Below, in pieces: positions 5,856 through 42,633 of a stretch of DNA of 64,000 bases. The first letter of the stretch is position 1, and each line of letters starts with the position of its first letter. The DNA comes from a bacterium (GTDB lineage: Bacteria > Krumholzibacteriota > Krumholzibacteriia > LZORAL124-64-63). The notes below the pieces were generated by a model, which saw nothing but the letters and a program-made list of their open reading frames with translations, did not search any database and was not told the origin of the DNA. The stretch is taken from assembly GCA_031441465.1 (NCBI GenBank), contig JANOEP010000046.1:69359-133358 (forward strand), written 5' to 3'. The translations under genes and the position numbers were made by a program.

Positions 5856-5939
5856 GCCGTTTCCTTCAACCAACTGGTGATCGTCGCTGCAACGAGCGTG
5901 TCGGTCGCGACCCGCGGCGGGCCCGCTGGCCGACGGTTC

Positions 5940-5968
5940 AGTCTAGGCACTCGCATGGTCCGCCGTCA
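5940..5968 (-). promoter_or_regulatory. Putative sigma70-type promoter of the TPR-aroQ-efp-accBC transcription unit
   Basis: Minus strand reads TTGACG, a 17-nt spacer, then TAGACT, about 70 nt upstream of the TPR gene start. Confidence 0.4.
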
Positions 5969-5987
5969 AGCCGCCTGCGGGAATCGT

Positions 5988-24692: not shown

Positions 24693-24740
24693 CAAGAACC
24701 TCCGGGTTGGACTGTTCGGGCGGGCGAGAATATTACCGAC

Positions 24741-24770
24741 ACCCTAGTTCCGGTGGCCGGGACTTGTCAA
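24741..24770 (-). promoter_or_regulatory. sigma70-type promoter for the H1-like gene
   Basis: Minus strand reads a perfect TTGACA, an 18-nt spacer, then TAGGGT, about 45 nt upstream of the start. Confidence 0.45.
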
Positions 24771-24793: not shown

Positions 24794-26452
24794 TCAGCGC
24801 CGATCGGCGGGCGAGATCCACCAGTCCTGGACGTTCTGGTAGGTCGAGAGCACGTGGGGCGCCACGCCGCGCAACCGGCGCCGCACCGCCACCACCTGGT
24901 CGGGGTAATAAAGCGTGGCGACCGGCGAGTCGGCCACGATCAGACGCTGGAAGGCGTCCCAGACGGGTTTGGCCAGGGAGCGGTCGCGCTCGGCGAGCCC
25001 CCGGGCGAGCAGGGAGTCGGCCGCGGCGCTGGCGTAATGGCCGTAGTTGAACAGCGACCAGGCGTCCGAGGCGAAGCGCGGCGAGGGGTCCACCGCGAGC
25101 CGTTCGGAATAGACGCCCAGGTACGCTTCGAAGCGGCCGGACTGGACGAGGTCGACGGCCGCGCCCATCTCCATGATCCGGGGCCGGCACTCCACCCCCA
25201 CCCGCCCGAGATGGTCGCGGACGGCGGCGGCGCCGTTCTCCCGCACCGCGTCCCCTTTGCGCGTCACCAGGCTGAAACTCAGCGTCTCGCCGCCGCGCTC
25301 CCGCACGCCGTCGCCGTCGGCGTCGCGCCAACCGGCGGCGTCGAGCAGCTCCCGCGCGCGGGCGGGGTCGTAGGGTTCCGCCGGCAGCTCGCGGTCGAAG
25401 GCCCAGAGCGCGGGCGGCAGCGGGCCGCCGCCCGCGCGCGCGCAGCCCTCCAACAGCCCGTCCACGAAGAGCGAACGGTCGACGGCCAGCGACAGCGCGC
25501 GCCGCACGCGTGGGTCGGCGAAACGGGGGTCGGCCAGATTCCACACGATCTGCCCCACCAGGCGTCCCGCCAACCGGTGCACGACCACATCGCCCCGCTG
25601 TTCCAGGCGGCCGAGCGCGTGCACGGGCACGTCCTCCAGCAGGTCCGCGCCGCCGGTCTCGAGTTCCACCAGGCGGGCCGTCTCGTCGGGGATGATCCGG
25701 AACACGAGCCGCTCGAGGCGGGGACGCGGCCCCGGGTAGGACTCGTTGCGGCGCAGGACCAGCATCTGGTTGCGCTCCCAGGACTCCAGCACGAAGGGGC
25801 CGCTCGAGAGCGGGTGTTCGTTGAGCGTCCAAGCGCGCACCGCCGCCGGGTCGAGCGCGTCGGTGACGTGGGCGGGCAGGATGAAGTGGCCGAGCGTCGC
25901 CACGAGGTCGTTGCGGCTCTCCCGGAACTCGTAGCGCACGGTCGAGTCGTCCATCGCGGTGACGGACTTCACGTTGTTGAAACGGCCGCCGCCGCGCGGG
26001 CTCGCCACACGCGGGTCGACGAACAACCGGAACGACGCCGCGACGTCGCGGGCCGTCAGCGGTGCGCCGTCGGACCAGCACCAGGGACGCAGCCGGACCG
26101 TCACCGCGAGGCTGTCGGGAGTGAATTCCAGACCGGCAGCGATGCACGGCCGATAGGTGAAGTCCTCGCCCATTTCCACGAGGCCGTCGCCGAGCAGGTC
26201 GAGGATCTGGCCGGCGTGGGCGGAGGTGTAGAGCAGCGGGTTCAGGACGTCGGGATCGGCCGGGAACGCGATCACGGCCGTGCCGCCGGCGGTCGGCTCG
26301 TCGGCGGCTCCCGGCCGGGGTTTCGCCTCGCGGCCACAGCCGATGGGCAGGACCGCCAGCACGGTCAACGCGACGAGCAACAGGGCGACGGCCGGCGACG
26401 GCGTCCCGACGTCTCCCGCCTCCGTGCCGGCGCTCCTGGTATTCGCTCCCAT
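24794..26452 (-). CDS. ABC transporter substrate-binding lipoprotein, family 5 (Opp/Dpp/Nik-like), orphan (no permease or ATPase genes nearby)
   Basis: Lipobox LPIGCG, then the SBP_bac_5 pattern (AFPADPDVLNPLLYTSAHAGQILDLLGDGLVEM...). Confidence 0.85.
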   Translation of the reverse strand: MGANTRSAGTEAGDVGTPSPAVALLLVALTVLAVLPIGCGREAKPRPGAADEPTAGGTAVIAFPADPDVLNPLLYTSAHAGQILDLLGDGLVEMGEDFTYRPCIAAGLEFTPDSLAVTVRLRPWCWSDGAPLTARDVAASFRLFVDPRVASPRGGGRFNNVKSVTAMDDSTVRYEFRESRNDLVATLGHFILPAHVTDALDPAAVRAWTLNEHPLSSGPFVLESWERNQMLVLRRNESYPGPRPRLERLVFRIIPDETARLVELETGGADLLEDVPVHALGRLEQRGDVVVHRLAGRLVGQIVWNLADPRFADPRVRRALSLAVDRSLFVDGLLEGCARAGGGPLPPALWAFDRELPAEPYDPARARELLDAAGWRDADGDGVRERGGETLSFSLVTRKGDAVRENGAAAVRDHLGRVGVECRPRIMEMGAAVDLVQSGRFEAYLGVYSERLAVDPSPRFASDAWSLFNYGHYASAAADSLLARGLAERDRSLAKPVWDAFQRLIVADSPVATLYYPDQVVAVRRRLRGVAPHVLSTYQNVQDWWISPADRR

Positions 26453-26473: not shown

Positions 26474-26559
26474 AAACGGCCCGGCCCCGTCGGGACCGGG
26501 CCGCTTCGGCAGCCCCGCGCAGTGTAGCGGGTGCGCCGGCCGCGGTCAACGCGGCCGGC
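26474..26559 (-). terminator. Two tandem GC-rich hairpins immediately downstream of the first giant gene (putative factor-independent terminator without a U-tract)
   Basis: GCCGGCCGCG-gtcaa-CGCGGCCGGC (10-bp stem) directly after the stop codon. About 35 nt further on, a second ~12-bp interrupted hairpin, CGGCCCGGCCCG-t-CGGGaCCGGGCCG. Confidence 0.4.
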
Positions 26560-26564
26560 GGCGG

Positions 26565-29500
26565 CTATTTCACGAGCAGCATCTTCAAGGTGCTGCCCTC
26601 GGCGCCGCGCTGTGCGCGCAGGAAGTAGACGCCGCTGGCCTGGGGACGTCCGGCGTCGTCCTGGCCGTGCCAGGTCACCGTCAACCAACCGGGCGCCACC
26701 GGGCCTCGGTGCAGGCTGCGCACGAGCCTGCCCTGCACGTCGAAGATCTCGACCGACAGCGGTCCCTCCCCGCCCGCGGGCACGTAGAGACGGGCCGTGG
26801 TGCTGGGGTTGAAGGGGTTGGGGACGTTGGGCATGAGCGACAGCCTGGCCGCCGGCGGCGGCGCCTCCTCGACCGGCGTCGTGGCGATGAACCGGAAGAC
26901 GCCGTCGCGCAGGTAATTGCCGCGGAACGTCGGCCAGGGCATCTCGTTCGGGTAGTAGGTCGCCGGCAGGTCCCAGACGTGGATCTGCAGGTCCCAGCCG
27001 CCGTAGACCAGGTTGACGTAGCCGTCCTGATCGAGGTCGCAGATCACCGGCGCGGGCCGGATGGGTCCGCCGAGGGTCAGCGGGAAGCCGTCGAGGTCCA
27101 CGCCGGCGTGCGAGAAGGCGTAGATGTTGTTCGGGGACTCGGTGTCGCCGCCGCCGATGCCGAACACCACATCCGGCAGATGGTCGCCGTTGAGGTCCCC
27201 GACCACCGGACTGGACTCCGTGTTGCCGGGCACCGAACGCGGCCAACCGCTCATGGTCTGGCCGCTGGTGCCGCCGGCGACATCGGTGTCGACGACGTGG
27301 ACGCTGGACGACGAGGCGCCGAACACTTCCACCGCCACGATCTCCAGCCGGCCGTCGTTGTCGAAGTCGCCCACGGCCGGGCTGGGGCAGGTCACGTCGC
27401 CGTTGGTGCTCTGGGAGCGGAAATAGCGGGGGAAGCCCGGATAGCGCGTGCCGTTCTGGCGGACCACCCGCAGCGAGTCCTCCTCCGAAATGTAGATGAT
27501 CTCCTTCAGCCCGTCGTTGTCGAGATCGGCGATGGTGGGGCTGCACATGATGTTGCCGCCGCTGCCGGCGGTGATCGGGAAACCCGGCACCTGGGTGCCG
27601 TTGTGGCGGTAGGCCAGCAGCAGGTTGGTGGCGACCGTGCGGTAGCGCGTCCCGAAGACGATGTCCTTGGCGCCGTCGCCGTCGAGGTCCGCGAGCGCGG
27701 GCGCGGAACGGCACCACTCGTCGTAGGGCAGCACCGCGGAGCGGTCGATCAGGACGCCCTGGGTGGCGGGGTTGTTGTCCCCGTCGCGCACTTCGGTGCC
27801 GTCGGCGTGCCAGGCGAGCGTGCGGCCCGCGAGGTTGTTGGCGACGACTTCGACCTCGCCGTCGCCGTCGATGTCCCCCACCGCGGGCGGCGCCCAGACC
27901 CACATCGTCCCGGTGGACCGCGGCCAGCCGGGCACCTGCGAACCGTCGGCGTTGTAGGCGAACATCAGCTTCAGGTCGCGCTCGGCGCAGAGGATCTCCA
28001 GCGCCGGGTCGCCGTCGAGGTTCGCCAGGGTCACGCCCATCGGCGACAGCCTGGCGTTGAGGTTGGTGATCGGGCCGAGGGTCTGCGAATCGTTGTCGCC
28101 GTCGAACAGCTCCTGCCCGTCCTCGGTCCACACGTAGACCTCGTCGGACGCCATGACGATCTCCAGGCGGTGGTCTCCGGTCACGTCGCCGACGGCGCAG
28201 TGGCTGCTCGTCTCGACCGCGAAGGGGAGCGGGAAGGGCGCGAGTTCCGAGGGAGACGTGCTCTTGGCGAAGACGGTCGAAGCGGCGCCCTCCACGAGGA
28301 ACGAGTCGACGCAGGTGACGCGGTAGTAGTAACGCGTCAACAGGTCCAGCCCGGTGTCGCGGAAGTAGGAAATCCGTCCCAGCAGATCGTAGTTGGACCG
28401 CGTGAACGGCCCGGCCGCGTTCTGGCTGCGGTAGACGTGGTAGCCTCGCACCCCGGGCTGGTTCACAGGAGTCCACTTCAGTTCGATGACGTCGGGGCCC
28501 AGCGCGGTGACGGAGGAGAGGTCGGTCGGCACCGCGGGCGTCGTCATCTTGAAGGAGTGCACGAAACGGCGCCCGCGCGAGTCGGTGACCACCAGCCGGG
28601 CGTCGTAGGGCAGGGTGACGTTCAAGACCTTCAGCGACACCAGCGCCGTGCCGCTGGACGTCTGCAGCAGGTCGAGGTTGGGGTAGGTCAGCAACGAGTC
28701 GTAGAGCACGACGTTGGGGCTGCTGGTGCGCAGCACGGCGGCGAGGCCGTCGGCGCGGCCGGCGCCGAAATTCTCCAGGGTCATCAGCACCGTGACGCGC
28801 TCGTTGTTCTCCAGGAGGCCGTCGTTGTCGCCGTAGGGCGCGTCGAACCAGTCTAGGGCGATGGCTTCGACCTCGGGGGCCTTGACCACCAACTCCCAAC
28901 GGGAGGTCCAGGGGCCGGCGGGGAGGTTGTCGGCGACCACGGTGAAGGTGACGTGGTTGCCGTCGGCCATCGCCGCGTCGAAGCGGACCAGGAACGTGTC
29001 CAGGGCGTTGGCGCTGCCCCCGCTCGGGATCGTGGCCACGGCGGCGTTCCCGTCCAGGATGGTCACGCCGGCGGCGGCCGAACTCAGCACCGCGGTCACG
29101 CCGGCGGCGCCGCCGCTCCCGGTGTCCTGGAAGCGCGCCGTGAAGGCGACGGTCTCCCCAGCCTCGGCGATGCCGTTGCCGTTGCCGATGGTGCCGCCGG
29201 TCCCGTTGTCGGTGACGGTCATGCTCTGCAGGGCGATGTAGGCGCCGGTCCCGGTCACCGGCAGCGACTGGACCTTGCGGGCGGAGTTGCGGGCGGTCAC
29301 GGTCAGGGTGAGCGAGCCGGTGTCCACCGGCACGATGTTCAGCGAAACCTGGCCGGCGCCGTCGGTGTCGCCCCAGACATAGACGTCGCCGCTGCGGCTG
29401 AGCACGACCCGCGCGCCGACGACGGGCAGCCCGCCCGACGTGATCGTGATCGGCACGTTCTGGGCGCCGAGCGGCAGCGAGGCGGGCACGCTCACCGTCA

Positions 29501-31454
29501 GGGCGGCGGGCGACGCCGTCCACATGCTCTGGCCGGGATCTCCGAGCAGCGTGTAGTTCAGGTACGTCCAGCGGGTGAAGCTGTTGGCCGGCGCGTACGC
29601 CAGCCAGGGCAGGCGGCTCGCGGTCATCAGGTCGCCGAGCCGGGGCTGGGCGTCGCACATCATGGCCTCGAAGAAAGCCTTCTGGAAATCGTTCGCGGTC
29701 GCCGGGAAGGCCGCCCGCGTGGCGCCGATCGAGGCGAAGGAGCCGCCGTTGGGGTTCTGCACGAACCGCTCCATGAGGCAGCCGTAGTCGAAGGCCGCCG
29801 AGGCGCAGTTCAGGGCGTACATCAGGAACGGCCGGGTGATGCCGTTGTGCAGGTTGTCGGCGTCGTTGATCGTGATGTTGGCGTCGCCCATGTTCATGTT
29901 GAAGAAGAAGCCGTGGCCGATCTGGTTGAAGACGTTGAAATGGCCGGTGTTCAGGCTGTCCAGCGCGGCGAGGCGGGTCTCGCGGACCGCCCCGGGGTAC
30001 ATCGGCTGGCCGAGGCCGTCCAGGCGGTCCCAGGCCTCGAACATCCGCACCGCCGTCATGTCCGTGCAGGGAGCCACGACTTCGTCCACGAGGGCCTGGG
30101 CGTATGTCGCGCCGTCGAGTGTGATGTCGCCCTCGGAGTTGGTGAACAGGACTTCGGCCGCGGTCAGGAAGCGGTTGGCGTAACCGGCGCCGGTGGCGGC
30201 GTTCTCGTAATTGAGGACCTTGGTCACGAAGGTGTTCACGTCCGCCACGGAACTCACCGGTGCGCGGCCGAAGGAGATGTCGCTGGCGACGTCGCAGTCG
30301 TCGCCGGGGTTGGATTCGTTGACGTTCGGCTCGCCGAAGTCGGCGTCCCCGTCCAGGTTCCAGTTCCCGTCGAGGCAGGCGAAGTAGAGGTCGGCCGGGA
30401 TCAGGGTCGTGCCTCCGGGCGGGTAGAAGTTGCTCAGCGCGTAGCGCGCCGGCACGACGTCCGTATCGCCGCCGAGCAGGACGTACTGGACGCCCCAGCG
30501 TTCGTAGGCGTCGCGGATGAACATGCGGACCGTCTCCTGGATGTCGACCCCGTGACGGTAGTTGGCCTCGATCCACTCCAGGGACTTGACGACGGCGGGC
30601 AGGCCCTGGGAAGTGCGGTAATCGGCCAGCGGCTGGAACGCGGCCGCCAGCGCGTCGCTGGTGATGATCAGGTAGGACACCGCCGAGCCGCTGAGGCTGG
30701 GCGTCTTGTCGGGGGAGAAACCGCCGACGGCCGTCGCGACGTCGGCCCCGTCCTCGCGGACGTACCCGGACAGCGCCTCGGGGTTGGCCAGGACGCCGGC
30801 GAGTCGCTGTTCGATCTTCTGGCGTTCGCCCGCGACCCGGCGCTGGCGCACGGCGACATCGGCCTGTCCGGCGGCAGCCGGCGCGGGCAACAACCGGATC
30901 TCGTAGCTCTCGAGCAGTTCGACCTCGCGCCACGAGCCGTCCGCCGCCTGCAGCGCGCGCAACGGGAACACCGTGACGGTGACCAGCCGGTACCCGTTCA
31001 TGACGTGGTTGCCGCCGAAACGCCCCCAGACGGACGGGAAGGACGTCTTGCTCCCGGGCACGACATCCTGGCGGCCGGGCACGCCCTCGCTGCTGAGCGG
31101 AGCGGCGGCCAGCGCCAGGTCCCCGGGCACGCGCAGTTTCCGCGTGGAGAGGGGCACGACTTCGACGGCTCCGTACGAGGTCGCCATCGGGACCAGCAGG
31201 GTCAGCGAGCGGCCGACCAGGTCGGGCCGACCGGTCTCCTGCAGGGGCTGCGTGTCGACCAGGCGCGGCAACACGTCCCCGCCCGGCTGCGTCGACCAGG
31301 CCAGGTCGGCCGCGGCGAACGAGCCCCGGTAGACGACGTCTCCGGCGGCCTGGGAGCCGGTGGTCGCCAGCAACGGCAACAGGACCGCGGCGAGCCCCCA
31401 GAGGGCGCGCGCGGCGCGAGGACCGACAGAGTCGTTGCGGTTCTTCCGATGCAT
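26565..31454 (-). CDS. Giant secreted multidomain protein: peptidase-C25 (gingipain/PorU-like) domain, FN3-like domain, seven FG-GAP/VCBS beta-propeller repeats, and a T9SS-type C-terminal sorting domain (Por_Secre_tail / FlgD-Ig-like)
   Basis: Signal peptide MHRKNRNDSVGPRAARALWGLAAVLLPLLATTGSQAAG. C25 motifs YLIITSDALAAAFQPLADYRTSQG, YVLLGGDTDVVPARY, IGHGFFFNMN and LNCASAAFD. FN3 region GYHVYRS...RYYYRVTCVD. Repeated DxDxDGxxE blades (VGDIDGDGEVEVV, ADLDGDGAKDIVF, IADLDNDGLKEII, VGDFDNDGRLEIV, ICDLDQDGYVNLVY). C-terminal sorting domain LMPNVPNPFNPSTTARLYV...GVYFLRAQ...KMLLVK. Start placed at Met75 of the track ORF; the upstream extension would include the promoter. Confidence 0.85.
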   Translation of the reverse strand: MHRKNRNDSVGPRAARALWGLAAVLLPLLATTGSQAAGDVVYRGSFAAADLAWSTQPGGDVLPRLVDTQPLQETGRPDLVGRSLTLLVPMATSYGAVEVVPLSTRKLRVPGDLALAAAPLSSEGVPGRQDVVPGSKTSFPSVWGRFGGNHVMNGYRLVTVTVFPLRALQAADGSWREVELLESYEIRLLPAPAAAGQADVAVRQRRVAGERQKIEQRLAGVLANPEALSGYVREDGADVATAVGGFSPDKTPSLSGSAVSYLIITSDALAAAFQPLADYRTSQGLPAVVKSLEWIEANYRHGVDIQETVRMFIRDAYERWGVQYVLLGGDTDVVPARYALSNFYPPGGTTLIPADLYFACLDGNWNLDGDADFGEPNVNESNPGDDCDVASDISFGRAPVSSVADVNTFVTKVLNYENAATGAGYANRFLTAAEVLFTNSEGDITLDGATYAQALVDEVVAPCTDMTAVRMFEAWDRLDGLGQPMYPGAVRETRLAALDSLNTGHFNVFNQIGHGFFFNMNMGDANITINDADNLHNGITRPFLMYALNCASAAFDYGCLMERFVQNPNGGSFASIGATRAAFPATANDFQKAFFEAMMCDAQPRLGDLMTASRLPWLAYAPANSFTRWTYLNYTLLGDPGQSMWTASPAALTVSVPASLPLGAQNVPITITSGGLPVVGARVVLSRSGDVYVWGDTDGAGQVSLNIVPVDTGSLTLTVTARNSARKVQSLPVTGTGAYIALQSMTVTDNGTGGTIGNGNGIAEAGETVAFTARFQDTGSGGAAGVTAVLSSAAAGVTILDGNAAVATIPSGGSANALDTFLVRFDAAMADGNHVTFTVVADNLPAGPWTSRWELVVKAPEVEAIALDWFDAPYGDNDGLLENNERVTVLMTLENFGAGRADGLAAVLRTSSPNVVLYDSLLTYPNLDLLQTSSGTALVSLKVLNVTLPYDARLVVTDSRGRRFVHSFKMTTPAVPTDLSSVTALGPDVIELKWTPVNQPGVRGYHVYRSQNAAGPFTRSNYDLLGRISYFRDTGLDLLTRYYYRVTCVDSFLVEGAASTVFAKSTSPSELAPFPLPFAVETSSHCAVGDVTGDHRLEIVMASDEVYVWTEDGQELFDGDNDSQTLGPITNLNARLSPMGVTLANLDGDPALEILCAERDLKLMFAYNADGSQVPGWPRSTGTMWVWAPPAVGDIDGDGEVEVVANNLAGRTLAWHADGTEVRDGDNNPATQGVLIDRSAVLPYDEWCRSAPALADLDGDGAKDIVFGTRYRTVATNLLLAYRHNGTQVPGFPITAGSGGNIMCSPTIADLDNDGLKEIIYISEEDSLRVVRQNGTRYPGFPRYFRSQSTNGDVTCPSPAVGDFDNDGRLEIVAVEVFGASSSSVHVVDTDVAGGTSGQTMSGWPRSVPGNTESSPVVGDLNGDHLPDVVFGIGGGDTESPNNIYAFSHAGVDLDGFPLTLGGPIRPAPVICDLDQDGYVNLVYGGWDLQIHVWDLPATYYPNEMPWPTFRGNYLRDGVFRFIATTPVEEAPPPAARLSLMPNVPNPFNPSTTARLYVPAGGEGPLSVEIFDVQGRLVRSLHRGPVAPGWLTVTWHGQDDAGRPQASGVYFLRAQRGAEGSTLKMLLVK

Positions 31455-31664
31455 GTCTCCCCCATGTCGTAAAGGGATGCGCCCGGCGCGGTCGCCGGAC
31501 AGTTCCTGGTCTTCATTTCGGCTCATGTGAGCACTTGCCGGCGGAACAGCGTCGCTCGAGTTTCCGCCGGCGTCTGGCCGGCGATCCGACTCGTTAACCT
31601 CGTTGCTCTCGCGTCCTCCCGGCAAGCGTTGGGGGCTGGCTGCGGCCATCGCCGCAGGTGAGGG

Positions 31665-31693
31665 AGTATAACGCAACCCGGGCGCGATGACAA
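31665..31693 (-). promoter_or_regulatory. sigma70-type promoter for the first giant gene (leader about 200 nt)
   Basis: Minus strand reads TTGTCA, a 17-nt spacer, then TATACT. A perfect 7-bp hairpin (CTGCGGC-gatg-GCCGCAG) lies at about +1 to +18 of the predicted transcript, and there are further GC hairpins in the leader. Confidence 0.45.
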
Positions 31694-31700
31694 TAGCCCG

Positions 31701-31718
31701 GACGGCGAAAACGCCGTT
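31701..31718 (-). terminator. Hairpin immediately after the stop of the second giant gene
   Basis: The TGA is followed on the minus strand by AACGGCG-tttt-CGCCGTC with no U-tract. It abuts the -35 of the downstream promoter. Confidence 0.35.
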
Positions 31719-34700
31719 TCAACGCACCAATGACATTTTCCCGACGGCTTCGCCCGCCGCGGAGCGCAACCGGTAGAGGTAGACGCCCGCCGGGACCGGC
31801 CTCCCGGCATCGTCCTCGCCGCGCCAAACGACGGCGTGGCCGCCGGCGGTCCGGACTTCGTTCAGCAAACGGCGGACTTCGCGGCCGAGCAGATCGTAGA
31901 CGGTCAGCGCAACCTCGCCGCGGAATCCCGCCGGCAACTCGAACTCGATGCGCGTGGCGGGATTGAAAGGATTGGGCACGTTTTGGCGGAGGGCCAGGAC
32001 CGCGCCCGGCAACGGATGTCCGGCGCCGGTCGCCGTGTCCGGCAGCGTCCAGACCCCCGTGCGCGCTCCGTTCGCGTGGAAGGTCGGCCACGGCATGTTC
32101 TCCGGGCTCCAAGGTTGCTGCAGGTCCCAGACGTGCATGGCCAGGTCCCAGCCGCCGTACACGAGATCCACATCCCCGTCCCGGTCGAGGTCCGTCAGGG
32201 TCGGCGTGGAGCGGACCGGCCCGCCCACGACCAGCGGGAAGCCCGGCACCGTCGTGCCGTCGTGCCGGAAGCCGTAGATGTGGTTCGGGGACGTGTCGGT
32301 GCCGCCGCCGATGCCGAAGATGACGTCGGGACGGCCGTCGCCCGTGATGTCCCCCACCAGCGGCGACGCCTCCGAGTTGCTCGCCAGCAACTGGGGCCAG
32401 CCCGCGATCACCGTGCCGTTCTTGCGGTAGGCGCAGAGGTACGAGGTGTGGCCGTCGACCACCTTGACCGCCACGATGTCCAGCACGCCGTCGCCGTCCA
32501 GGTCGCCGAGGGCGGGCGACGGGCAGGGGATGCCGGCTTGCCCGCTGTTCGCCGTGAAGGCCAGCGGGAACGGCGCCACCGCCTGGCCCGTCTCATCGAT
32601 CACATAGAGCTTGTCGTTCTCGGTGACGAACACGATCTCGAGCACGCCGTCGCCGTCGAGGTCGCCGGCCGCGGGCGAACAGATAGACGAGGACCAGGCG
32701 CCCAGCATGAAAGGCCAGCCGGCGGCGTCGACGGCGTTGTTGCCCAGGGCGTGCACACGGTCGGCCGCGCCGTTCATGTAGCGGGACACGACCACGACTT
32801 CGCGCCGGCCGTCGTGGTCGACGTCGACCAGCAACGGCGCGCCGAACTGGTAGGACTCGCCGGTCCGGACCTGGAAGACGCCGACGGTGGCGGGGTTGGC
32901 GTCGCCGTCGAAGAAGTCGCGGCCGTCGTGGTGCCAGACGTAGGTGATGCCGGCGGTCGAGGTGACCACGACTTCGGCGTCGCCGTCGCCGTCGAGGTCG
33001 CCGACGGCGGGCGCGGCCCAGTTCCAGGCGTTGATGGTGCGCGGCCAGCCGGGCGCCGTGGTGCCGTCTCCCTGGAAGACGTAGATGGAATTGCCGCTGC
33101 GGCACGAGGCGACGATCTCGAGACCGGGATGGGGCGTGAGGTCGGCCAGGGTGACGGCGGCCGGCGTCCAGGTCTGACCGATGCTGATGAACGGGCCGCT
33201 GGTGGCGGGGTTGGCGTCGCCGTCGCGCAGTTCCTGCCCGGTGGCGTCCCAGGCGTAGATGGCGTCCGCCGCGGTCACGACATCCAGGACGCCGTCGCCG
33301 TCGATGTCGCCGACCGCGACATGGCTGGACGTCTCGGCGTGCATGGCGATCGGGAAGCCGCCGATTTCCGTCGGCGAAGAATCGAGGAACCCGGTCGACG
33401 ACTGCCGGCCCTCCAGACCCGAGGAATCCTGGGCGGTGACCCGGTAGTAATAGCGGGTCAGGGCGGCGAGTCCCAAGTCCTGGAAGAATCCGCCGTGCAC
33501 GGGCTCGGCGGTCAGGCGCTGGAAGCCCGAGTTCGGCGTCGTCGAGCGGTACACGTGGTAGCCCGCGATGTCGGTGGCGGACGAGGGTGGCCACGAGATC
33601 GCGGCCGTCAGCGCGGCGGGGCTGGCGACCGACGGCAGACTGACCTGGTCGGGACGGCTGAAATCGAACTCGTGGACCCACGTGCGGCCCAGACCGTCGG
33701 CGATGTGCAGGCGGGCCCGGCGGCTGTTCGAGATGGAGTTCATGCTCAGCAGGAACTCGGTCGCCTGCTGGACCTCGCCCCGCGGTCCGAGCACCGGCCA
33801 GGACGTCGTGCCGGCCGTGATGTTGACGCCCGGCAGCCCCGTCTCCAGCCATCCGGTCAGGCCGGCCGCGCCGCCCCGGCCGTCGTTGCGCAGGTCGAAC
33901 CAGACGCGGATCACTTCGTTGACGTCGATGGTGCCGTTGCCGTTGCCGTAGGGAAAATCGTTCCAGCGCAGGATTCCGGGCGAGAGCGCCGGCGCCACGA
34001 CTTCCAGGGTGAAATCCTCCCGACAGACGGCATACCCGTCGGAGCTGCCGAGGGTGAAGAGCAATTCGGTCCGGTCGGCCAGGTCGCGGTCCAGACCGAT
34101 CAGCAGCGGCGCGCCGGCGGGACCGCTCGCTCCGGCCGCGAGCGCCGGCGCCTGGCAGGCGGCGACGAGCAGGTCGACGGCGGGATGCGCGCAGGCGAGC
34201 GACAGCGCGGCGGGTTGCAGCAGCGGGGCGTCGCCGCCGTTGCGCAGGACGGGCAGCACGGCGATCACTTCGCCGGCGTCCGGGAGGCCGTCGGCGTTGC
34301 CGGCGGAGCCGTAGGCGCCGTTGTCGAAGATCGTCAGCGTGGCGAGACCCAGATAGGGCTGACCGGAGCCGCCGACGGCGACGCCGCCCGCGTACGGGAT
34401 GCAGTCCGCGGCGGTCACGGTGAGGTCCAGGTCGCCGGCGCTGTTCGGCACGACGTCGAGCGCGACGGTGCCGTCGGCGCCCGTCAGTCCCGTGGCCAGC
34501 ACGTCACCCGCTTTGTAGAGGCAGACCCGGGCGCCGGCCAGGGACACGCCGGCCCGCCGCACCTCGATCAGGGCCGTCGACGGCCCGAGCGGCAGGACTG
34601 CGGGCGCGGTGACCGTGAGCGTCTGCGGCGCCGCGGTCCAGAGCTGCAGCGACGGATCGCCGAGCACCGCCATCGCCATCTGCGTCCAGCGTTCGACGGT

Positions 34701-36548
34701 GTTCTGCTGGGAGGCGGCGAGCCAGACCAGGCGGCTCGCATCCACCGCGGCGCCCGCGGACGGCTGGCGCTCGTCGAACACGGCGGCGTAGAAGCTCTTC
34801 TGGAAGTAGCCCGCCGTCTGGGCGAACGCCGCCCGGGAAGAGCCGATCGCCAGCACGGCGCCGCCCTGGGCGTTGGTCATGAACCGTTCCATGATGGAAT
34901 GGTAGTCGAAGGCCGCCGAGGCGCAGTTCAGGTTGTTCAGGATGAAGGCGTGGGGGCTGTTGACGAGGGCTGCCGCGTCGGTCAGGGACAGGGTCTTGTC
35001 GCCCACCGACATGTCGAAGAAGAACCCGTGACCGATATGATTGATGTAGCCGTACAACCCGGTGTTCATGGCGGCCAGCACGCCGGCCTTCGTCTCGGGT
35101 AGCGAGCCGGGCCACAGGGGGCTCGCTTCGTAATGCCTCGTGACCGGAACGTTCTTCCCTTCGAGCACCTCGGTGATGATCGCCTCGCTGTACGCGGCGC
35201 CGTCGATCTCGATCGGGGTTCCCGGCGTGTAGGCGCTCGGGAACAGGACTTCGCTGAGGAACAGGACCTGCGCGAGGTGCGGGCCGACGGCATCGCGCTC
35301 GTGGGCGAGGATCTTCGCCACGAACACCTGCGCCTCCGCGGCCGACCTGACCGGTGCGCGCCCGACGTGCAGTTCGGGGGCCAGATCGGCGCCGTCGCCG
35401 GGATCGTAGGTATTGAAGTAGGGCTCGCCCGGCGTCTGGTCGCCGTCGGCGTTCCAGTCGCCGTCCAGACCGCCGTAGTAGAGATCGACCGGGATGTGGG
35501 AGCCCGTGCCCGAAGGGTAGAAGGAGTTGTAGACCATCCGGACCGGCAGCAGTTCGACGTCGCCGCCTAGCAGGGCGTAGTCGGCCCCCCAGCGCACGTA
35601 GGCGTCGGTCAGGAACGAGCGGATCGTCGCCGGCAGATCCTCCCCCGCCGGATAGGTCGCCTGGATCCAGGACAGTGTCCTGACGACCGTCGGGAGCCCC
35701 CGCGCGGTCTTGTAGTCGGCCAGTTGCTGGAACACGGACGACAGTTCGTCGGTCGTGACGATGACCATGCCCACCGCGGGGCCGTCGAGGCTGGGCACGA
35801 GCGTCGGCGCGAAGGCGTCACCGGCCGCCCGGTCCCCGGAGACGGCCGCCGGTATCGCGTACGCGTCGCGGGCGGACGGGTTGGCGACGAGCCGCGCCAG
35901 CGCAGCCGGCTGCAGGTCCGCGCCGCCGGGGTGGGAGCGCAGGCGCACGGCGCGCGGCGCCGGGTCGTCGTCCAGCTGCAGCCGGATCGTGAAGTCCGTG
36001 GCCGACTCGCGCTGGTCCCATGGCTTGCCCGCAGAAGTGCGGCGCAAACGCTCGGGATGGATGCGGACCGTCGCCAGCCCCATCCCGTGCCACACGGCCT
36101 GCCCCGTCAATTCGCCCCAGGACGCCGGATACCTGTCGTCCGCCTCGCCGGCGACGTTCCCGGCGCCCGGCAAACCTTCCGACGAAAGCAACGGCGGGCA
36201 CGGGGTGGTGTCTCCCGGCGGCAGGGCCACGATCCCGTCGACCGGAACGACCTCGGCCGCGAGCGCGCGTTGGCCGGGAGGCAGCAGGATCAGCAGGTCG
36301 CGGAACGGCATCTCGGGCCGGCCCGGCGCGCGCAGGAACCCCGCCGTCACCGGCGCGCCGGCTTGGTCGACACCGGTCACTTCCAAAACCAGCTCCCGAT
36401 TCCCGGGGCCGGCGGCCCCCTGGGACGCTCCGACCGGGGCGACGGCGAAGCCGACCAGGGTCAGCCAGGCGAACCCGCGCAGCCGGTTCCGCCATGACGG
36501 ACCGGCTACCTCGAACCAGGGGCGGGACTTGGCGACGTACCGGTGCAA
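31719..36548 (-). CDS. Giant secreted multidomain protein, paralog (~45% identity) of 26565..31454: peptidase-C25-like, FN3, FG-GAP/VCBS repeats, T9SS-type C-terminal sorting domain
   Basis: Same motif series: MVIVTTDELSSVFQQLADYKTARG, YALLGGDVELLPVRMV, HIGHGFFFDMS, LNCASAAFD, GYHVYRS...RYYYRVTAQD, VGDIDGDGVLDVV / VGDLDGDGDAEVV / VDVDHDGRREVV / LGDLDGDGVLDIV / LTDLDRDGDVDLV, and a C-terminal LRQNVPNPFNPATRIEFEL...GVYLYRL...KMSLVR. The start is uncertain: the track ORF begins at a TTG with no Shine-Dalgarno sequence, so I chose the in-frame TTG at 36548 (AAGGA 10 nt upstream), which gives a signal-like GFAWLTLVGFAVAPVGASQG. Confidence 0.8.
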   Translation of the reverse strand: MHRYVAKSRPWFEVAGPSWRNRLRGFAWLTLVGFAVAPVGASQGAAGPGNRELVLEVTGVDQAGAPVTAGFLRAPGRPEMPFRDLLILLPPGQRALAAEVVPVDGIVALPPGDTTPCPPLLSSEGLPGAGNVAGEADDRYPASWGELTGQAVWHGMGLATVRIHPERLRRTSAGKPWDQRESATDFTIRLQLDDDPAPRAVRLRSHPGGADLQPAALARLVANPSARDAYAIPAAVSGDRAAGDAFAPTLVPSLDGPAVGMVIVTTDELSSVFQQLADYKTARGLPTVVRTLSWIQATYPAGEDLPATIRSFLTDAYVRWGADYALLGGDVELLPVRMVYNSFYPSGTGSHIPVDLYYGGLDGDWNADGDQTPGEPYFNTYDPGDGADLAPELHVGRAPVRSAAEAQVFVAKILAHERDAVGPHLAQVLFLSEVLFPSAYTPGTPIEIDGAAYSEAIITEVLEGKNVPVTRHYEASPLWPGSLPETKAGVLAAMNTGLYGYINHIGHGFFFDMSVGDKTLSLTDAAALVNSPHAFILNNLNCASAAFDYHSIMERFMTNAQGGAVLAIGSSRAAFAQTAGYFQKSFYAAVFDERQPSAGAAVDASRLVWLAASQQNTVERWTQMAMAVLGDPSLQLWTAAPQTLTVTAPAVLPLGPSTALIEVRRAGVSLAGARVCLYKAGDVLATGLTGADGTVALDVVPNSAGDLDLTVTAADCIPYAGGVAVGGSGQPYLGLATLTIFDNGAYGSAGNADGLPDAGEVIAVLPVLRNGGDAPLLQPAALSLACAHPAVDLLVAACQAPALAAGASGPAGAPLLIGLDRDLADRTELLFTLGSSDGYAVCREDFTLEVVAPALSPGILRWNDFPYGNGNGTIDVNEVIRVWFDLRNDGRGGAAGLTGWLETGLPGVNITAGTTSWPVLGPRGEVQQATEFLLSMNSISNSRRARLHIADGLGRTWVHEFDFSRPDQVSLPSVASPAALTAAISWPPSSATDIAGYHVYRSTTPNSGFQRLTAEPVHGGFFQDLGLAALTRYYYRVTAQDSSGLEGRQSSTGFLDSSPTEIGGFPIAMHAETSSHVAVGDIDGDGVLDVVTAADAIYAWDATGQELRDGDANPATSGPFISIGQTWTPAAVTLADLTPHPGLEIVASCRSGNSIYVFQGDGTTAPGWPRTINAWNWAAPAVGDLDGDGDAEVVVTSTAGITYVWHHDGRDFFDGDANPATVGVFQVRTGESYQFGAPLLVDVDHDGRREVVVVSRYMNGAADRVHALGNNAVDAAGWPFMLGAWSSSICSPAAGDLDGDGVLEIVFVTENDKLYVIDETGQAVAPFPLAFTANSGQAGIPCPSPALGDLDGDGVLDIVAVKVVDGHTSYLCAYRKNGTVIAGWPQLLASNSEASPLVGDITGDGRPDVIFGIGGGTDTSPNHIYGFRHDGTTVPGFPLVVGGPVRSTPTLTDLDRDGDVDLVYGGWDLAMHVWDLQQPWSPENMPWPTFHANGARTGVWTLPDTATGAGHPLPGAVLALRQNVPNPFNPATRIEFELPAGFRGEVALTVYDLLGREVRRLLNEVRTAGGHAVVWRGEDDAGRPVPAGVYLYRLRSAAGEAVGKMSLVR

Positions 36549-36631
36549 GGCTGGGTTGTCCTTCGGGCTGGTGTGTCCGGCAGGGCCGGGGCGAAACACA
36601 TCCGCCGGAAACCGCAACTGTCAACACGGTG

Positions 36632-36662: not shown

Positions 36663-36691
36663 ATATTACCACGTGGGCCCCGACCCGTCAA
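36663..36691 (-). promoter_or_regulatory. Near-consensus sigma70 promoter for the second giant gene
   Basis: Minus strand reads TTGACG, a 17-nt spacer, then TAATAT. The -35 overlaps the stop codon of the upstream gene. Confidence 0.5.
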
Positions 36692-38010: not shown

Positions 38011-38666
38011 GGCGCCGTCTCCCCTCTCCAGCGGGCCCACCAGTACCACCCGTAGTCGAGCCCATCGCGCGCGATGGCCGCGGTGAGGGCGGCGGTCGCG
38101 CGGTCGGGCGCGCCGCCGTCGCCACGCAGCAGCGCCAGCACCCCTTCCCGATCGGGGGGCTCGGCGCGGTTGAGGTCGCGGCCGAAGCTCCATCCCGCGA
38201 GACCGACGGATCCGGCCAAGGCGCCCCGCAGCTCCTCGAGCGCCGGCAGGCGCCCGCGCGAGGGGACCAGGCGGGCCAACCAATCCCGCAGATCCCGGTC
38301 GTTGCGGCGCGCCGGGGTGTCGGCCCGCGGATCGTCCTGCAGGAGGTGCAGGCAGCCGCCCGGAGCCAGGCAGCCGATCCAGGCCGTCGCGTCCGCGACG
38401 ACGTCGGCGGCGCCACCGAGATGGTGAAGCAGGTTCGCGGCCACGATCAGGTTCACCGCGCCGGGGCGCACCGGCAACGCGCGGGCATCGCCCACGATAC
38501 CGCCGGTGGGACCGGGTCGCCGGTTGTCCAGGGGGACCACGTCCGCGCCCGCCTCGCCCAACGCCCGCGTGAAGCGCCCGTCTCCGGCGCCCAGTTCGAG
38601 GACGACCCCGCCCCGCAGGCGGGCGAGGTCACTCCGCAGGAGGTCCGGGAGTGGTGAGAACGACAT
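38007..38666 (-). CDS. Class I SAM-dependent methyltransferase
   Basis: Motif I VLELGAGDGRFT and motif post-I DVVPLD. The start overlaps the 3' end of the upstream gene by 38 nt. Confidence 0.8.
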   Translation of the reverse strand: MSFSPLPDLLRSDLARLRGGVVLELGAGDGRFTRALGEAGADVVPLDNRRPGPTGGIVGDARALPVRPGAVNLIVAANLLHHLGGAADVVADATAWIGCLAPGGCLHLLQDDPRADTPARRNDRDLRDWLARLVPSRGRLPALEELRGALAGSVGLAGWSFGRDLNRAEPPDREGVLALLRGDGGAPDRATAALTAAIARDGLDYGWYWWARWRGETAP

Positions 38667-39915: not shown

Positions 39916-39998
39916 ATTGATCCCCTTGGCATTCCCGTCGATCCGTCGTCGGGACGAGCCAACCGAACCCTAGGTCAGCCCCAGGGTGGTGGCAACGA

Positions 39999-42478: not shown

Positions 42479-42633
42479 GGCCTCGGCCCCGTGTCCCAGG
42501 GCCGAACGGTGTCCATGAAGAGGGCCGGCCCCGCGTTGGTCAGGCGAGGGGGGCCGGCCCCACCGGATCGGCATGCGTCGGTTCATGCGGGCACTCTAAC
42601 GCGACCGGACCCGCCGTACAAGCGCCGGTGCGC

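What the first reader, a model, noticed from the sequence alone, without database searches (positions are those of the whole stretch)
26565..36548. Tandem giant paralogs combining peptidase-C25 (gingipain/PorU-like), FN3, seven-blade FG-GAP/VCBS propeller and T9SS-type C-terminal sorting domains
Two adjacent ~1600-aa secreted proteins share the same architecture at about 45% identity: a gingipain-type N-terminal region and catalytic His/Cys motifs (IGHGFFF..., LNCASAAFD), an FN3 module, DxDxDGxxE propeller blades, and a Por_Secre_tail-like C-terminus.

Each has its own near-consensus sigma70 promoter and its own terminator hairpins, so the two copies appear independently regulated. In Porphyromonas the C25-like protein carrying this sorting domain is PorU, the sortase that swaps the sorting domain for anionic LPS.

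These could therefore be either giant surface proteases or adhesins, or PorU-like sortases. Either would be unusual in a ~70% GC genome.
Basis: partly seen in the sequence, partly recalled or inferred. Interest (0 to 1): 0.7.

Follow-up and report, generated by a model that had tools for sequence, protein, structure and literature searches.

The report
Tandem giant gingipain-like surface proteases
Two neighbouring genes encode 1,600-residue secreted proteins that join a gingipain-type cysteine protease to an eight-bladed calcium-binding propeller and a type IX secretion tail; they belong to a widespread but unstudied family of uncultured Krumholzibacteria and Eisenbacteria and are most likely surface proteases, not the PorU sortase.

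Summary
Gene A (26565..31454, minus strand, 1629 aa) and gene B (31719..36548/36617, minus strand, about 1610-1632 aa) share one architecture. It runs: signal peptide, N-terminal beta-sandwich, C25 catalytic domain with an intact and invariant His/Cys dyad, Ig-like modules, FN3, FG-GAP/VCBS propeller, C-terminal FlgD_ig/Por_Secre_tail domain.

Three corrections apply:
- Identity is 39-40% overall, and 45% only in the C25 and propeller parts.
- The propeller has eight repeats and models as eight-bladed, not seven.
- There are no T-tract terminators, only GC hairpins after the stop codons.

The window comes from a Krumholzibacteriota genome (FCB superphylum). The family has at least 557 loci in species-representative genomes of Krumholzibacteria, Eisenbacteria and Latescibacterota, so it is not odd for a 70% GC genome. 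A is the conserved syntenic copy. B is an older, faster-evolving tandem paralog kept in one sublineage.

PorU membership fails. The PorU model scores 82-94 bits against a cutoff of 420, and the protease RgpB itself scores 53. The family profile matches RgpB better than PorU, there is no porV neighbour, and paralogs are frequent.

The best reading is a type IX secretion (T9SS) cargo: a surface gingipain-like protease with an adhesin-like propeller. T9SS machinery genes could not be checked.

The parts
26565..31454 (-). Gene A: 1629-aa C25-propeller protein, the conserved syntenic copy of the family
   Evidence: ORF and translation. 100% identical to public protein P0001. Orthologues sit in the same gene neighbourhood in about 40 Krumholzibacteria loci.
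31719..36617 (-). Gene B: tandem paralog. The start is uncertain (TTG 36548, GTG 36599 or TTG 36617), giving about 1609-1632 aa
   Evidence: 39-40% identical to A. B-type orthologues lie upstream of A in L002, L003, L005-L007, L010, L011, L030, L041 and L054.
31344..31454 (-). A: signal peptide (residues 1-37, MHRKN...LLPLLATTGSQA|AG)
   Evidence: Read directly from the sequence: basic n-region, hydrophobic core, SQA-A cleavage-type motif. No predictor was run.
30690..31343 (-). A: N-terminal beta-sandwich plus linker (residues 38-255), possibly a C25 propeptide
   Evidence: AF2 residues 1-160 of model m9f68c4d7a365 have pLDDT about 80-90 and are all-beta. Propeptide_C25 matches weakly in 2 of 13 members (E 0.004) and weakly in an Eisenbacteria orthologue.
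29505..30689 (-). A: Peptidase_C25 catalytic domain (residues 256-650)
   Evidence: Pfam PF01364 E 1e-55 over the full length. The family profile matches RgpB with E 5e-19. The AF2 model of this part was low confidence.
29913..29915 (-). A: catalytic His514 (IGHG)
   Evidence: Aligns to RgpB His211. Invariant in alignment A1 and in all 81 family members from the loci. Coordinates.
29805..29807 (-). A: catalytic Cys550 (LNCAS)
   Evidence: Aligns to RgpB Cys244. Invariant. Coordinates.
28545..29504 (-). A: Ig-like domain (Peptidase_C25_C-like) plus two further beta-sandwich modules (residues 651-970)
   Evidence: PF03785 scores 24.1 bits against a cutoff of 25. The region aligns to the RgpB Ig-like domain, residues 354-433. 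AF2 pLDDT is about 80-90 and all-beta.
28260..28544 (-). A: FN3 module (residues 971-1065)
   Evidence: Matches the solved Fn3-like protein 3mpc, E 2.4e-6. AF2 pLDDT is about 86-93.
26895..28259 (-). A: eight FG-GAP/VCBS repeats forming a predicted eight-bladed, Ca-binding-type propeller (residues 1066-1520)
26568..26852 (-). A: C-terminal sorting-type domain (residues 1535-1629; PNPFNP ... GRxV ... GVYF ... KMLLVK)
   Evidence: FlgD_ig is above its cutoff and TIGR04183 scores 21.1 against 23. All 14 family CTDs match Por_Secre_tail at E<0.01. The profile matches the PorU CTD with E 1e-5. Beta-sandwich in the model.
34623..35783 (-). B: Peptidase_C25 catalytic domain, with His (35028..35030) and Cys (34923..34925)
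   Evidence: Pfam E 4e-57. Motifs IGHGFFFD and LNCASAAFDY.
32049..33380 (-). B: FG-GAP/VCBS propeller
   Evidence: Pfam. Seven strict DxDxDG matches plus the degenerate second repeat LADLTPHPGLE.
31722..32006 (-). B: C-terminal sorting-type domain (ends KMSLVR)
   Evidence: FlgD_ig scores 30.3 bits against a cutoff of 27. TIGR04183 scores 16.7 against 23.
31665..31693 (-). Promoter-like site upstream of A (TTGTCA-17-TATACT, 10 of 12)
   Evidence: Both hexamers are conserved in L002 and L003. This is a consensus match only.
36663..36691 (-). Promoter-like site upstream of B (TTGACG-17-TAATAT with TG)
   Evidence: This is a consensus match only.
31455..31660 (-). About 200-nt 5' leader of A, conserved and predicted to be structured
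   Evidence: 94-95% identical to L002 and L003, against about 86-90% for the flanking coding DNA. A 1-nt indel in L002 shows it is not coding. RNA fold z = -3.9, with the Shine-Dalgarno sequence paired.
26535..26559 (-). GC-rich 10-bp hairpin just after the stop of A, with no T tract
   Evidence: Read from the sequence. The terminator scan did not call it.
24794..26452 (-). Downstream OppA-like solute-binding protein (SBP_bac_5), a neighbour of the family in two phyla
   Evidence: Pfam E 1e-70. NCBIfam Opp4A 172 bits, below its cutoff. Adjacent to the C25-propeller gene in Krumholzibacteria (downstream) and in 5 Eisenbacteria loci (upstream).

Best explanation
Both genes encode cell-surface, gingipain-family (C25) cysteine endopeptidases that are cargo of a type IX-type secretion pathway.

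Proposed mechanism:
1. A Sec signal peptide takes the roughly 170-kDa precursor to the periplasm (inferred from sequence).
2. The C-terminal 95-residue beta-sandwich acts as a type A sorting domain for transport across the outer membrane. It is then removed or used for anchoring (inferred by homology).
3. The N-terminal beta-sandwich probably acts as a gingipain-like propeptide that keeps the enzyme latent (weakly supported).
4. Catalysis uses His514/Cys550. Glu434 probably takes the role of RgpB Glu152 (dyad shown by alignment and invariance; Glu inferred).
5. The Ig-like, FN3 and eight-bladed Ca-binding-type propeller modules form a stalk and a ligand-binding head. The head holds the protease on protein or glycan substrates, as in integrin alpha heads and the Vibrio Bap1/RbmC matrix adhesins (inferred from fold).
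6. The adjacent OppA-like binding protein suggests that the released peptides are taken up (speculative).

Gene A is the conserved copy. Gene B is an older tandem duplicate that has kept every catalytic and sorting feature while diverging faster. It probably has a different substrate or ligand preference.
For: C25 membership and activity:
- Full-length Peptidase_C25 matches, E 1e-55 and 4e-57.
- His and Cys align to RgpB His211 and Cys244.
- Both residues are invariant in 20 aligned homologues and in all 81 full-length members from three candidate phyla.

Closer to gingipains than to PorU:
- The family profile scores RgpB 71 bits and Kgp 49 bits. The RgpB match includes the gingipain Ig-like domain. 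PorU scores 26 bits.

C-terminal domain:
- It lies at the extreme C-terminus.
- All 14 sampled CTDs match Por_Secre_tail (best E 1.8e-8) and FlgD_ig.
- The profile aligns nearly end to end with the CTD of PorU (E 1e-5) and matches that of PorZ (E 0.017).
- NCBI names several homologues 'T9SS type A sorting domain-containing protein'.
- The same domain ends hundreds of thousands of unrelated proteins of 100-7,800 aa.

Fold of the C-terminal half:
- FN3, eight-bladed propeller and beta-sandwich, modelled at pLDDT 82.5.

Other support:
- Recurrent duplication, typical of surface cargo.
- An SBP_bac_5 neighbour in two phyla, in different arrangements.
- The organism belongs to the FCB superphylum (PMC10936416), where T9SS occurs (PMC11205867).
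Against: - No T9SS machinery gene lies in the 64-kb window or in the scanned flanks of related loci. The rest of the genome could not be searched.
- TIGR04183 and PF18962 scores for A and B themselves are below the curated cutoffs.
- The same Ig fold also occurs as internal tandem repeats in many proteins.
- The catalytic domain could not be modelled with confidence (pLDDT below 50). The active-site geometry and the S1 pocket are therefore unverified.
- Near-universal presence, constant length and fixed synteny next to LPS and O-antigen genes would also fit a core envelope function rather than a nutritional protease.
- No experimental data exist for any member.
Confidence: 0.6

Rival explanations
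1. PorU-type sortase, possibly a PorU-PorZ functional fusion. The C25 module would remove the C-terminal domains of other cargo and transfer them to a surface glycolipid. The propeller would present that glycolipid, as the PorZ propellers present anionic LPS to PorU.
For: - It is a C25 protein that carries a T9SS-type CTD whose profile matches the uncleaved CTDs of PorU and PorZ best among solved T9SS CTDs.
- PorZ (5m11) appears among the Foldseek hits of the C-terminal half (rank 28).
- The gene is near-universal, of constant length, and sits in a conserved position. In Krumholzibacteria it lies just after O-antigen-ligase-family (Wzy_C), WecA-like and unknown envelope genes, and near heptosyltransferase II-GmhB.
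- In Eisenbacteria it lies near Polysacc_synt_2/Bac_transf and Wzz genes.
- The PorZ/PorU mechanism is taken from PMC8545088.
Against: - The PorU model gives 82-94 bits against a cutoff of 420, covering only the generic C25 core.
- RgpB scores 53 bits and the isolated C25 domains 68-74 bits on the same model.
- The family profile matches gingipains better than PorU.
- None of the neighbours scanned in the window or the related loci is porV-like.
- Two to three paralogs per genome are common.
- An Eisenbacteria genome with two copies of this family also has a 1405-aa C25 protein that matches the PorU-specific N-terminal part of the model (166 bits).
- The PorZ propellers are of a different repeat family, and the hit has TM about 0.17.
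Confidence: 0.12
2. A surface adhesin or coat protein in which the C25 domain only processes the protein itself (autocatalytic maturation or shedding). The propeller-FN3-Ig array would be the functional part.
For: - About 1,000 of 1,629 residues are binding-type modules: Ig-like, FN3 and propeller.
- The closest structural analogues of the propeller include the biofilm adhesin Bap1 and integrin heads.
- The propeller is as conserved between A and B (46%) as the catalytic domain (45%).
Against: - Strict invariance of the dyad and of many residues around it across three phyla argues for a selected enzymatic activity.
- Nothing distinguishes self-processing from trans-cleavage in the sequence.
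Confidence: 0.12
3. Not a T9SS substrate. The C-terminal domain would be only a FlgD-type Ig fold, and the protein would be exported by another route, or would stay periplasmic or outer-membrane associated.
For: - FlgD_ig scores above its Pfam cutoff, while Por_Secre_tail and TIGR04183 score below theirs for A and B.
- Solved FlgD domains give the lowest E-values for the CTD profile (4e-8).
- The same domain occurs as internal tandem repeats in many proteins.
- No T9SS gene was seen in any sequence examined.
Against: - The FlgD matches cover only profile positions 30-83, whereas the PorU CTD aligns over 9-83.
- The domain is always the last 95 residues. It carries the type A hallmarks (GRxV, GVY, and a conserved Lys in the last strand; motif description in PMC11285876).
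- All 14 family CTDs hit Por_Secre_tail at E<0.01.
- NCBI's pipeline names homologues as T9SS type A cargo.
- At least 42 of the best 150 unrelated hits end exactly at their C-terminus.
Confidence: 0.1
4. A non-catalytic adhesin with a dead protease domain.
For: None found.
Against: - His and Cys are present in both A and B, and in every one of 81 family members.
Confidence: 0.02

Closest known systems
Gingipains RgpB and Kgp of Porphyromonas gingivalis (MEROPS/Pfam family C25; T9SS cargo)
   Same: - The order of parts matches: signal peptide, N-terminal pro-region, C25 catalytic domain with a His/Cys dyad, Ig-like domain, C-terminal T9SS sorting domain.
- The family profile matches RgpB with E 5e-19 across the catalytic and Ig-like domains.
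   Different: - About 900 extra residues lie between the Ig-like domain and the CTD: two beta-sandwich modules, FN3 and an eight-bladed FG-GAP propeller.
- There are no haemagglutinin/adhesin (Cleaved_Adhesin) domains as in RgpA and Kgp.
- Identity to the gingipain core is only about 20-25%, and the S1 specificity is unknown.
- The hosts are free-living, high-GC candidate phyla, not Bacteroidota.
PorU, the T9SS C-terminal signal peptidase and sortase (NCBIfam NF033707; PDB 6ZA2)
   Same: - Both are C25-family proteins with a T9SS-type CTD.
- The CTD profile aligns to the PorU CTD (E 1e-5).
- PorU appears in the Foldseek list of the (poor) N-terminal model.
   Different: - The score is far below the PorU cutoff and little better than that of a gingipain.
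- The PorU-specific N-terminal region is not matched.
- There is no porV neighbour.
- The family is multi-copy.
- It carries a propeller that PorU lacks.
PorZ (T9SS anionic-LPS delivery protein; PDB 5M11)
   Same: Both have beta-propeller modules followed by a T9SS CTD, and the CTD profile matches the PorZ CTD (E 0.017). 5m11 is also a Foldseek hit.
   Different: - PorZ has two seven-bladed propellers of another repeat type and no protease domain.
- The structural match is weak (TM about 0.17).
Vibrio cholerae Bap1/RbmC and integrin alpha head domains (FG-GAP/VCBS propellers)
   Different: - Integrins have seven blades and Bap1 has eight.
- Neither is fused to a protease or to a T9SS tail.
NCBIfam NF052323, 'T9SS-dependent M6-like inactivated metalloprotease'
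   Same: It shares the last propeller blades plus the CTD. Residues 1429-1656 of the longest (1703-aa) reading frame of A, which are residues 1355-1582 of the 1629-aa protein, score 98.8 bits.
   Different: The enzymatic head is different (M6-like, inactive), and the score is far below the cutoff of 600.

Membership tests
Peptidase family C25 (Pfam PF01364) | Full-length match to the family model above the gathering score | tested here: met
   186.7 and 194.6 bits against a cutoff of 23, covering model positions 1-370/374 and 1-374/374.
Peptidase family C25 (Pfam PF01364) | Catalytic His and Cys at the positions of RgpB His211 and Cys244 | tested here: met
   A His514/Cys550, and B His530/Cys565 counted from the TTG at 36617, align to RgpB His211/Cys244. 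Both residues are invariant in 20 aligned homologues and in 81 family members.
Peptidase family C25 (Pfam PF01364) | Ig-like domain directly after the catalytic domain (Peptidase_C25_C) | tested here: inconclusive
   PF03785 scores 24.1 and 17.2 bits against a cutoff of 25. However, the family profile aligns through the RgpB Ig-like domain, residues 354-433, and AF2 gives a confident beta-sandwich there.
Peptidase family C25 (Pfam PF01364) | N-terminal propeptide (Propeptide_C25) | tested here: inconclusive
   No hit for A. Two of 13 homologues hit at E 0.004. There is a weak precomputed hit in an Eisenbacteria orthologue. AF2 gives a confident beta-sandwich for residues 38-200.
Peptidase family C25 (Pfam PF01364) | Cysteine endopeptidase activity | not testable with these tools
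   Needs biochemistry.
PorU, T9SS sortase (NCBIfam NF033707) | Score at or above the equivalog cutoff (420 bits), including the PorU-specific N-terminal region | tested here: not met
   82.6 and 94.3 bits, covering only model positions about 365-738. The control RgpB scores 53.3 bits and the isolated C25 domains 68 and 74 bits.
PorU, T9SS sortase (NCBIfam NF033707) | Closer to PorU than to gingipain proteases | tested here: not met
   Family profile against PDB sequences: RgpB 71 bits, Kgp 49 bits, PorU 26 bits in non-catalytic fragments.
PorU, T9SS sortase (NCBIfam NF033707) | Genomic pairing with porV (adjacent in P. gingivalis and F. johnsoniae, from my own knowledge) | tested here: not met
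   The neighbours are an unknown TM protein (hyp36), an SBP_bac_5 protein, GltX, ClpB and similar. No PorV family hit was found among the neighbours scanned.
PorU, T9SS sortase (NCBIfam NF033707) | CTD retained; CTD-cleaving and transpeptidase activity | not testable with these tools
   Needs proteomics and biochemistry.
T9SS type A C-terminal sorting domain (TIGR04183 / PF18962) | Match to the domain model above the curated cutoff | tested here: inconclusive
   A scores 21.1 and B 16.7 bits against a cutoff of 23. PF18962 scores 18.4 bits against 27 for A, but all 14 family CTDs match at E<0.01, with a best E of 1.8e-8. Some homologues carry a precomputed PF18962 hit and the NCBI name 'T9SS type A sorting domain-containing protein'.
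T9SS type A C-terminal sorting domain (TIGR04183 / PF18962) | Located at the extreme C-terminus, with a conserved Lys in the last strand and Gly in the beta3-beta4 region (PMC11285876) | tested here: met
   The proteins end ...KMLLVK and ...KMSLVR. K1624, G1575, R1576 and V1578 are invariant.
T9SS type A C-terminal sorting domain (TIGR04183 / PF18962) | Homology to solved T9SS CTDs and an Ig-like beta-sandwich fold | tested here: met
   The profile matches the PorU CTD (residues 1061-1138, E 1.1e-5), the PorZ CTD (E 0.017) and the RgpB CTD (E 0.36). The model shows six to seven strands with pLDDT of 74-90 in most 10-residue blocks.
T9SS type A C-terminal sorting domain (TIGR04183 / PF18962) | T9SS machinery (SprA/Sov, PorV, GldK/L/M/N) encoded in the same genome | not testable with these tools
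   None is present in the 64-kb window. Whole genomes cannot be scanned here. The literature places T9SS in the FCB superphylum (PMC11205867).
FG-GAP/VCBS beta-propeller | Repeats matching FG-GAP models, with DxDxDG loops closing into a propeller | tested here: met
FlgD (flagellar hook cap protein) | N-terminal FlgD domain plus Ig-like domain, in a protein of about 140-230 aa within a flagellar locus | tested here: not met
   Only the Ig-like part matches. There is no FlgD N-terminal domain, and no flagellar gene among those annotated in the window.

The most novel reading that the evidence does not exclude
The family may be the attachment enzyme of a non-Bacteroidota type IX-like system, a single polypeptide that combines the jobs of PorU and PorZ. 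The C25 module would be the CTD peptidase and transpeptidase. The propeller would present the glycolipid.

This would explain several features:
- The gene is near-universal and of fixed length.
- In two candidate phyla it lies beside O-antigen-ligase-family, WecA-like, heptosyltransferase or Wzz-type polysaccharide genes.

The tandem copy B would then be a second sortase, with a different cargo or acceptor specificity.
Probability: 0.12. Interest if true: 0.8.

Novelty: new variant of a known kind. Interest (0 to 1): 0.35.

Why it matters
Gingipains and PorU are the only studied C25 enzymes, and both come from Bacteroidota. This family shows that the C25 fold with a T9SS tail is a core, strongly conserved feature of at least three uncultured FCB phyla: Krumholzibacteriota, Eisenbacteria and Latescibacterota. 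Here it is fused to an eight-bladed calcium-type propeller that no characterised C25 enzyme has.

If these are surface proteases, they are probably a main tool for protein foraging or surface remodelling in these common soil, sediment and wastewater bacteria. If they turn out to be the sortase of these phyla, they would show how cargo attachment works outside Bacteroidota.

For annotation, the result is practical. The proteins should be named C25 peptidase / T9SS type A cargo, not PorU and not FlgD.

Tried and rejected
- **T9SS machinery genes.** I looked in the window and in the flanks of 81 related loci, using six Pfam and NCBIfam neighbour scans. None was found. No tool can scan a whole genome, so this stays open.
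- **hyp36 as PorV.** The conserved upstream gene (36688..38010) was a candidate. It has an N-terminal TM helix and a helix-rich soluble part, with no Pfam or NCBIfam hit, so it was rejected.
- **Model of the N-terminal half.** With a 13-sequence alignment, AF2 gave a confident N-terminal domain and Ig modules, but the catalytic domain stayed below pLDDT 50. Its Foldseek list (PorU rank 5, Kgp rank 11) is therefore only suggestive, and I could not inspect the active site or the S1 pocket.
- **RgpB Asp163 equivalent.** The alignment around the family's conserved LDGA is ambiguous, so I make no specificity claim.
- **Literature.** Searches for Krumholzibacteriota plus type IX secretion, and for C25 plus FG-GAP, found nothing on this family.
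- **Contig look-up.** Looking up the window's own contig by protein identity failed.
- **Separate PorU in Krumholzibacteria.** I found a better PorU-like protein only in one Eisenbacteria genome, with no porV beside it. Its presence in Krumholzibacteria is unknown.
- **Rfam.** No RNA family reached its gathering threshold anywhere in the window.


Full report
**What is there**

The region holds two adjacent minus-strand genes with the codon-position GC pattern of real genes in this 70% GC window (GC3 0.91-0.93).

- Gene A runs 26565..31454. It encodes a 1629-aa protein identical to a public NCBI protein (P0001).
- Gene B runs from 31719 to a start at 36548, 36599 or 36617. All three in-frame start codons are conserved in a close relative, so the start is not settled.
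- The two proteins align end to end at 39-40% identity.
- Identity by part is 45% in the catalytic domain, 46% in the propeller, 43% in the C-terminal domain and about 31% in the N-terminal and middle parts.

**Domain anatomy**

- Pfam gives full-length Peptidase_C25 matches (E 1e-55 and 4e-57), FG-GAP_3 and FG-GAP repeats, and a FlgD_ig domain at the extreme C-terminus. It also gives a borderline Peptidase_C25_C Ig-like domain.
- A solved Fn3-like protein matches residues 971-1051.
- An AlphaFold2 model of the last 664 residues has mean pLDDT 82.5. It shows an FN3 module, a large all-beta propeller and a terminal beta-sandwich.
- The sequence has eight DxDxDG-type repeats of about 55 residues.
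- Foldseek ranks integrin alphaV heads first.
- A model of residues 38-975 gave confident beta-sandwiches for residues 38-200 and 650-975. The catalytic domain was not folded with confidence, so nothing about the active site rests on structure.

**Catalytic residues**

- A direct comparison with solved chains aligns IGHG His514 and LNCAS Cys550 of A with His211 and Cys244 of gingipain RgpB. A profile of the family does the same at E 5e-19.
- Both residues are invariant in an alignment of 20 homologues down to 40% identity.
- GHG followed about 35 residues later by [N/D/S]C is present in all 81 full-length family members recovered from genomes of three candidate phyla.
- B has both residues.
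- The conserved Glu of AAEVLF lies two alignment positions from RgpB Glu152 and probably plays the same role (inference).

**C-terminal domain**

- For A and B themselves the T9SS models score just under their cutoffs (TIGR04183 21.1 and 16.7 against 23). FlgD_ig scores above its cutoff.
- Taken as a family, all 14 sampled C-terminal domains match both FlgD_ig (best E 2e-13) and Por_Secre_tail (best E 1.8e-8).
- A profile of the domain aligns almost end to end with the C-terminal domain of PorU (residues 1061-1138, E 1e-5). It also finds that of PorZ (E 0.017). The lower E-values to flagellar FlgD cover only the central part.
- The domain is always the last 95 residues. It carries PNPFNP, GRxV, GVY and a conserved Lys in the last strand. 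These are the features that PMC11285876 describes as important in T9SS C-terminal domains.
- NCBI already names several homologues 'T9SS type A sorting domain-containing protein'.
- Against 1.84 billion representative proteins the profile finds 374,421 proteins at E<=0.001. At least 42 of the best 150 are unrelated proteins of 102 to 1,624 residues in which the match ends exactly at the C-terminus. Others, up to 7,779 residues, carry it within about 20 residues of the end. Many proteins also carry the fold as internal tandem repeats.
- The domain is therefore a modular C-terminal tag of T9SS type A kind. The fold itself is not exclusive to sorting.

**Where it comes from and how common it is**

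- Homologues of 1,590-1,650 residues number in the hundreds. Where named, they come from Candidatus Krumholzibacteriia.
- A scan of one genome per species found at least 557 loci. The best 78 are from Krumholzibacteria, Eisenbacteria and Latescibacterota.
- Krumholzibacteriota belongs to the FCB superphylum (PMC10936416), the group in which T9SS occurs (PMC11205867). A T9SS-tailed C25 protein in a 70% GC genome is therefore expected, not unusual.

**Gene neighbourhood and the history of the pair**

- In about 40 Krumholzibacteria loci the A-type gene sits in one conserved order. The order is: Wzy_C (O-antigen-ligase family), WecA-like GT4, an unknown TM protein (hyp36), [B], A, an SBP_bac_5 (OppA-like) protein, an H1-like protein, HSP20, Lon, a heptosyltransferase, and heptosyltransferase II-GmhB.
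- Ten loci have a B-type gene directly upstream of A. The others have A alone.
- In a neighbour-joining tree the B-type copies form one clade, sister to all Krumholzibacteria A-type copies.
- B diverges faster: 79.7% against 88.2% identity to the same close relative.
- Other lineages have independent tandem pairs, second-locus copies, or a shorter 1,150-aa paralog without the propeller.
- In Eisenbacteria the context differs. It again includes an SBP_bac_5 gene (directly upstream in five loci) and polysaccharide genes (Polysacc_synt_2/Bac_transf, Wzz) a few genes away.

**PorU or protease?**

- The NCBIfam PorU model gives 82-94 bits against a cutoff of 420, over the generic C25 core only.
- As a control, RgpB, which is a protease and not a sortase, gives 53 bits on the same model. 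The isolated C25 domains of A and B give 68 and 74.
- In the other direction, the family profile scores RgpB 71 bits and Kgp 49 bits. P. gingivalis PorU scores only 26 bits, in fragments outside the catalytic centre.
- No neighbour resembles PorV.
- Paralogs are frequent.
- One Eisenbacteria genome with two copies of this family encodes, 5 kb from one of them, a distinct 1,405-aa Propeptide_C25 + C25 + FlgD_ig protein. That protein matches the PorU-specific N-terminal part of the model (166 bits) and passes the TIGR04183 cutoff.
- These results argue that the family is cargo rather than the sortase.
- They do not exclude a sortase-like or PorU/PorZ-like role. The constant length, near-universal presence and repeated placement beside LPS or polysaccharide genes keep that reading alive at low probability.

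**Regulatory claims**

- Sigma-70-like sites lie upstream of both genes. They are more frequent in the region than in shuffles (4 against 0.4).
- The hexamers upstream of A are conserved in two relatives.
- These are consensus matches only, and the promoter type of this phylum is unknown.
- The scan found no T-tract terminator at either gene end. GC hairpins follow both stop codons.

**Conclusion**

The finding is a real and well-described pair of paralogs from a large, conserved, uncharacterised family. The most likely function is a T9SS-exported surface cysteine protease of gingipain type. It would carry a calcium-dependent eight-bladed propeller as its binding head, and B would be a diverged second copy.

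This is a new architectural variant of a known kind, not a new kind of system. Interest is moderate.

Noticed in passing
window 31455..31660 (minus strand): The roughly 200-nt 5' leader of gene A is 94-95% identical to two relatives whose flanking coding DNA is about 86-90% identical. About 80 nt are invariant. A 1-nt indel in L002 shows it is not coding. It folds with z = -3.9, and a long-range helix pairs CCCCCA with the GGGGGAG Shine-Dalgarno sequence. It may be a translational control element. There is no Rfam match.
   Followed up: partly
window 36688..38010 (minus strand); e.g. L001 8338..9636: A conserved gene of unknown function (about 430-440 aa, N-terminal TM helix, no Pfam or NCBIfam hit) lies directly upstream of the C25-propeller gene in 32 loci. 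It sits between the WecA-like transferase and the protease.
   Followed up: partly
window 24794..26452 (minus strand); Eisenbacteria loci L062, L064, L067, L068, L074: An orphan OppA-like solute-binding protein (SBP_bac_5) with no adjacent ABC permease genes neighbours the C25-propeller gene in two phyla. It is downstream in one and upstream in the other, which hints at a functional link to peptide capture.
   Followed up: partly
L056 20058..24416 (minus strand), which is L080 10001..14218: An Eisenbacteria genome encodes a 1,405-aa Propeptide_C25 + C25 + FlgD_ig protein (P0268). It fits the PorU model better (166 bits, including the PorU-specific N-terminal part) than the window's family does, and lies 5 kb from a C25-propeller gene. 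Most members lack a GHG motif, and no porV is adjacent.
   Followed up: partly
L055 6878..10327 and L058 6818..10270: A shorter paralog of about 1,150 aa (C25 + Ig + CTD, no propeller, TIGR04183 above its cutoff) lies in tandem with the long form in two unclassified MAGs.
   Followed up: no
window 17796..19682 (minus strand): A fusion of LPS heptosyltransferase II (156 bits, above its cutoff) with the heptose-1,7-bisphosphate phosphatase GmhB lies next to a second GT9 gene. A Wzy_C protein (41129..42595) and a WecA-like transferase (38629..39969) lie on the other side of the protease genes.
   Followed up: no
L002 about 4842..9737: The B-type copy of the closest relative (89% for A) has an interrupted reading frame: the open frame begins only at 5850, inside the C25 domain. 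It is either a pseudogene or an assembly error.
   Followed up: no
record titles of L002, L003, L005-L010 and others: Near-identical or clearly orthologous loci are labelled 'Gemmatimonas sp.', 'Fibrobacter sp.', 'uncultured Fibrobacteraceae' or 'Gemmatimonadales' in public records, while others are labelled Krumholzibacteriia. The taxonomic labels of these MAGs are inconsistent.
   Followed up: no
window 24018..24743 (minus strand): A lysine- and alanine-rich protein resembling histone H1-like HC2 (37.7 bits, just under the cutoff of 40) is conserved downstream of the SBP gene in many Krumholzibacteria loci.
   Followed up: no
proteins P0121-P0136 and others: The FlgD_ig/CTD-type fold occurs as 8-23 tandem internal copies in very large proteins of up to 4,065 aa. 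The sorting-domain fold is therefore also used as a structural repeat.
   Followed up: no
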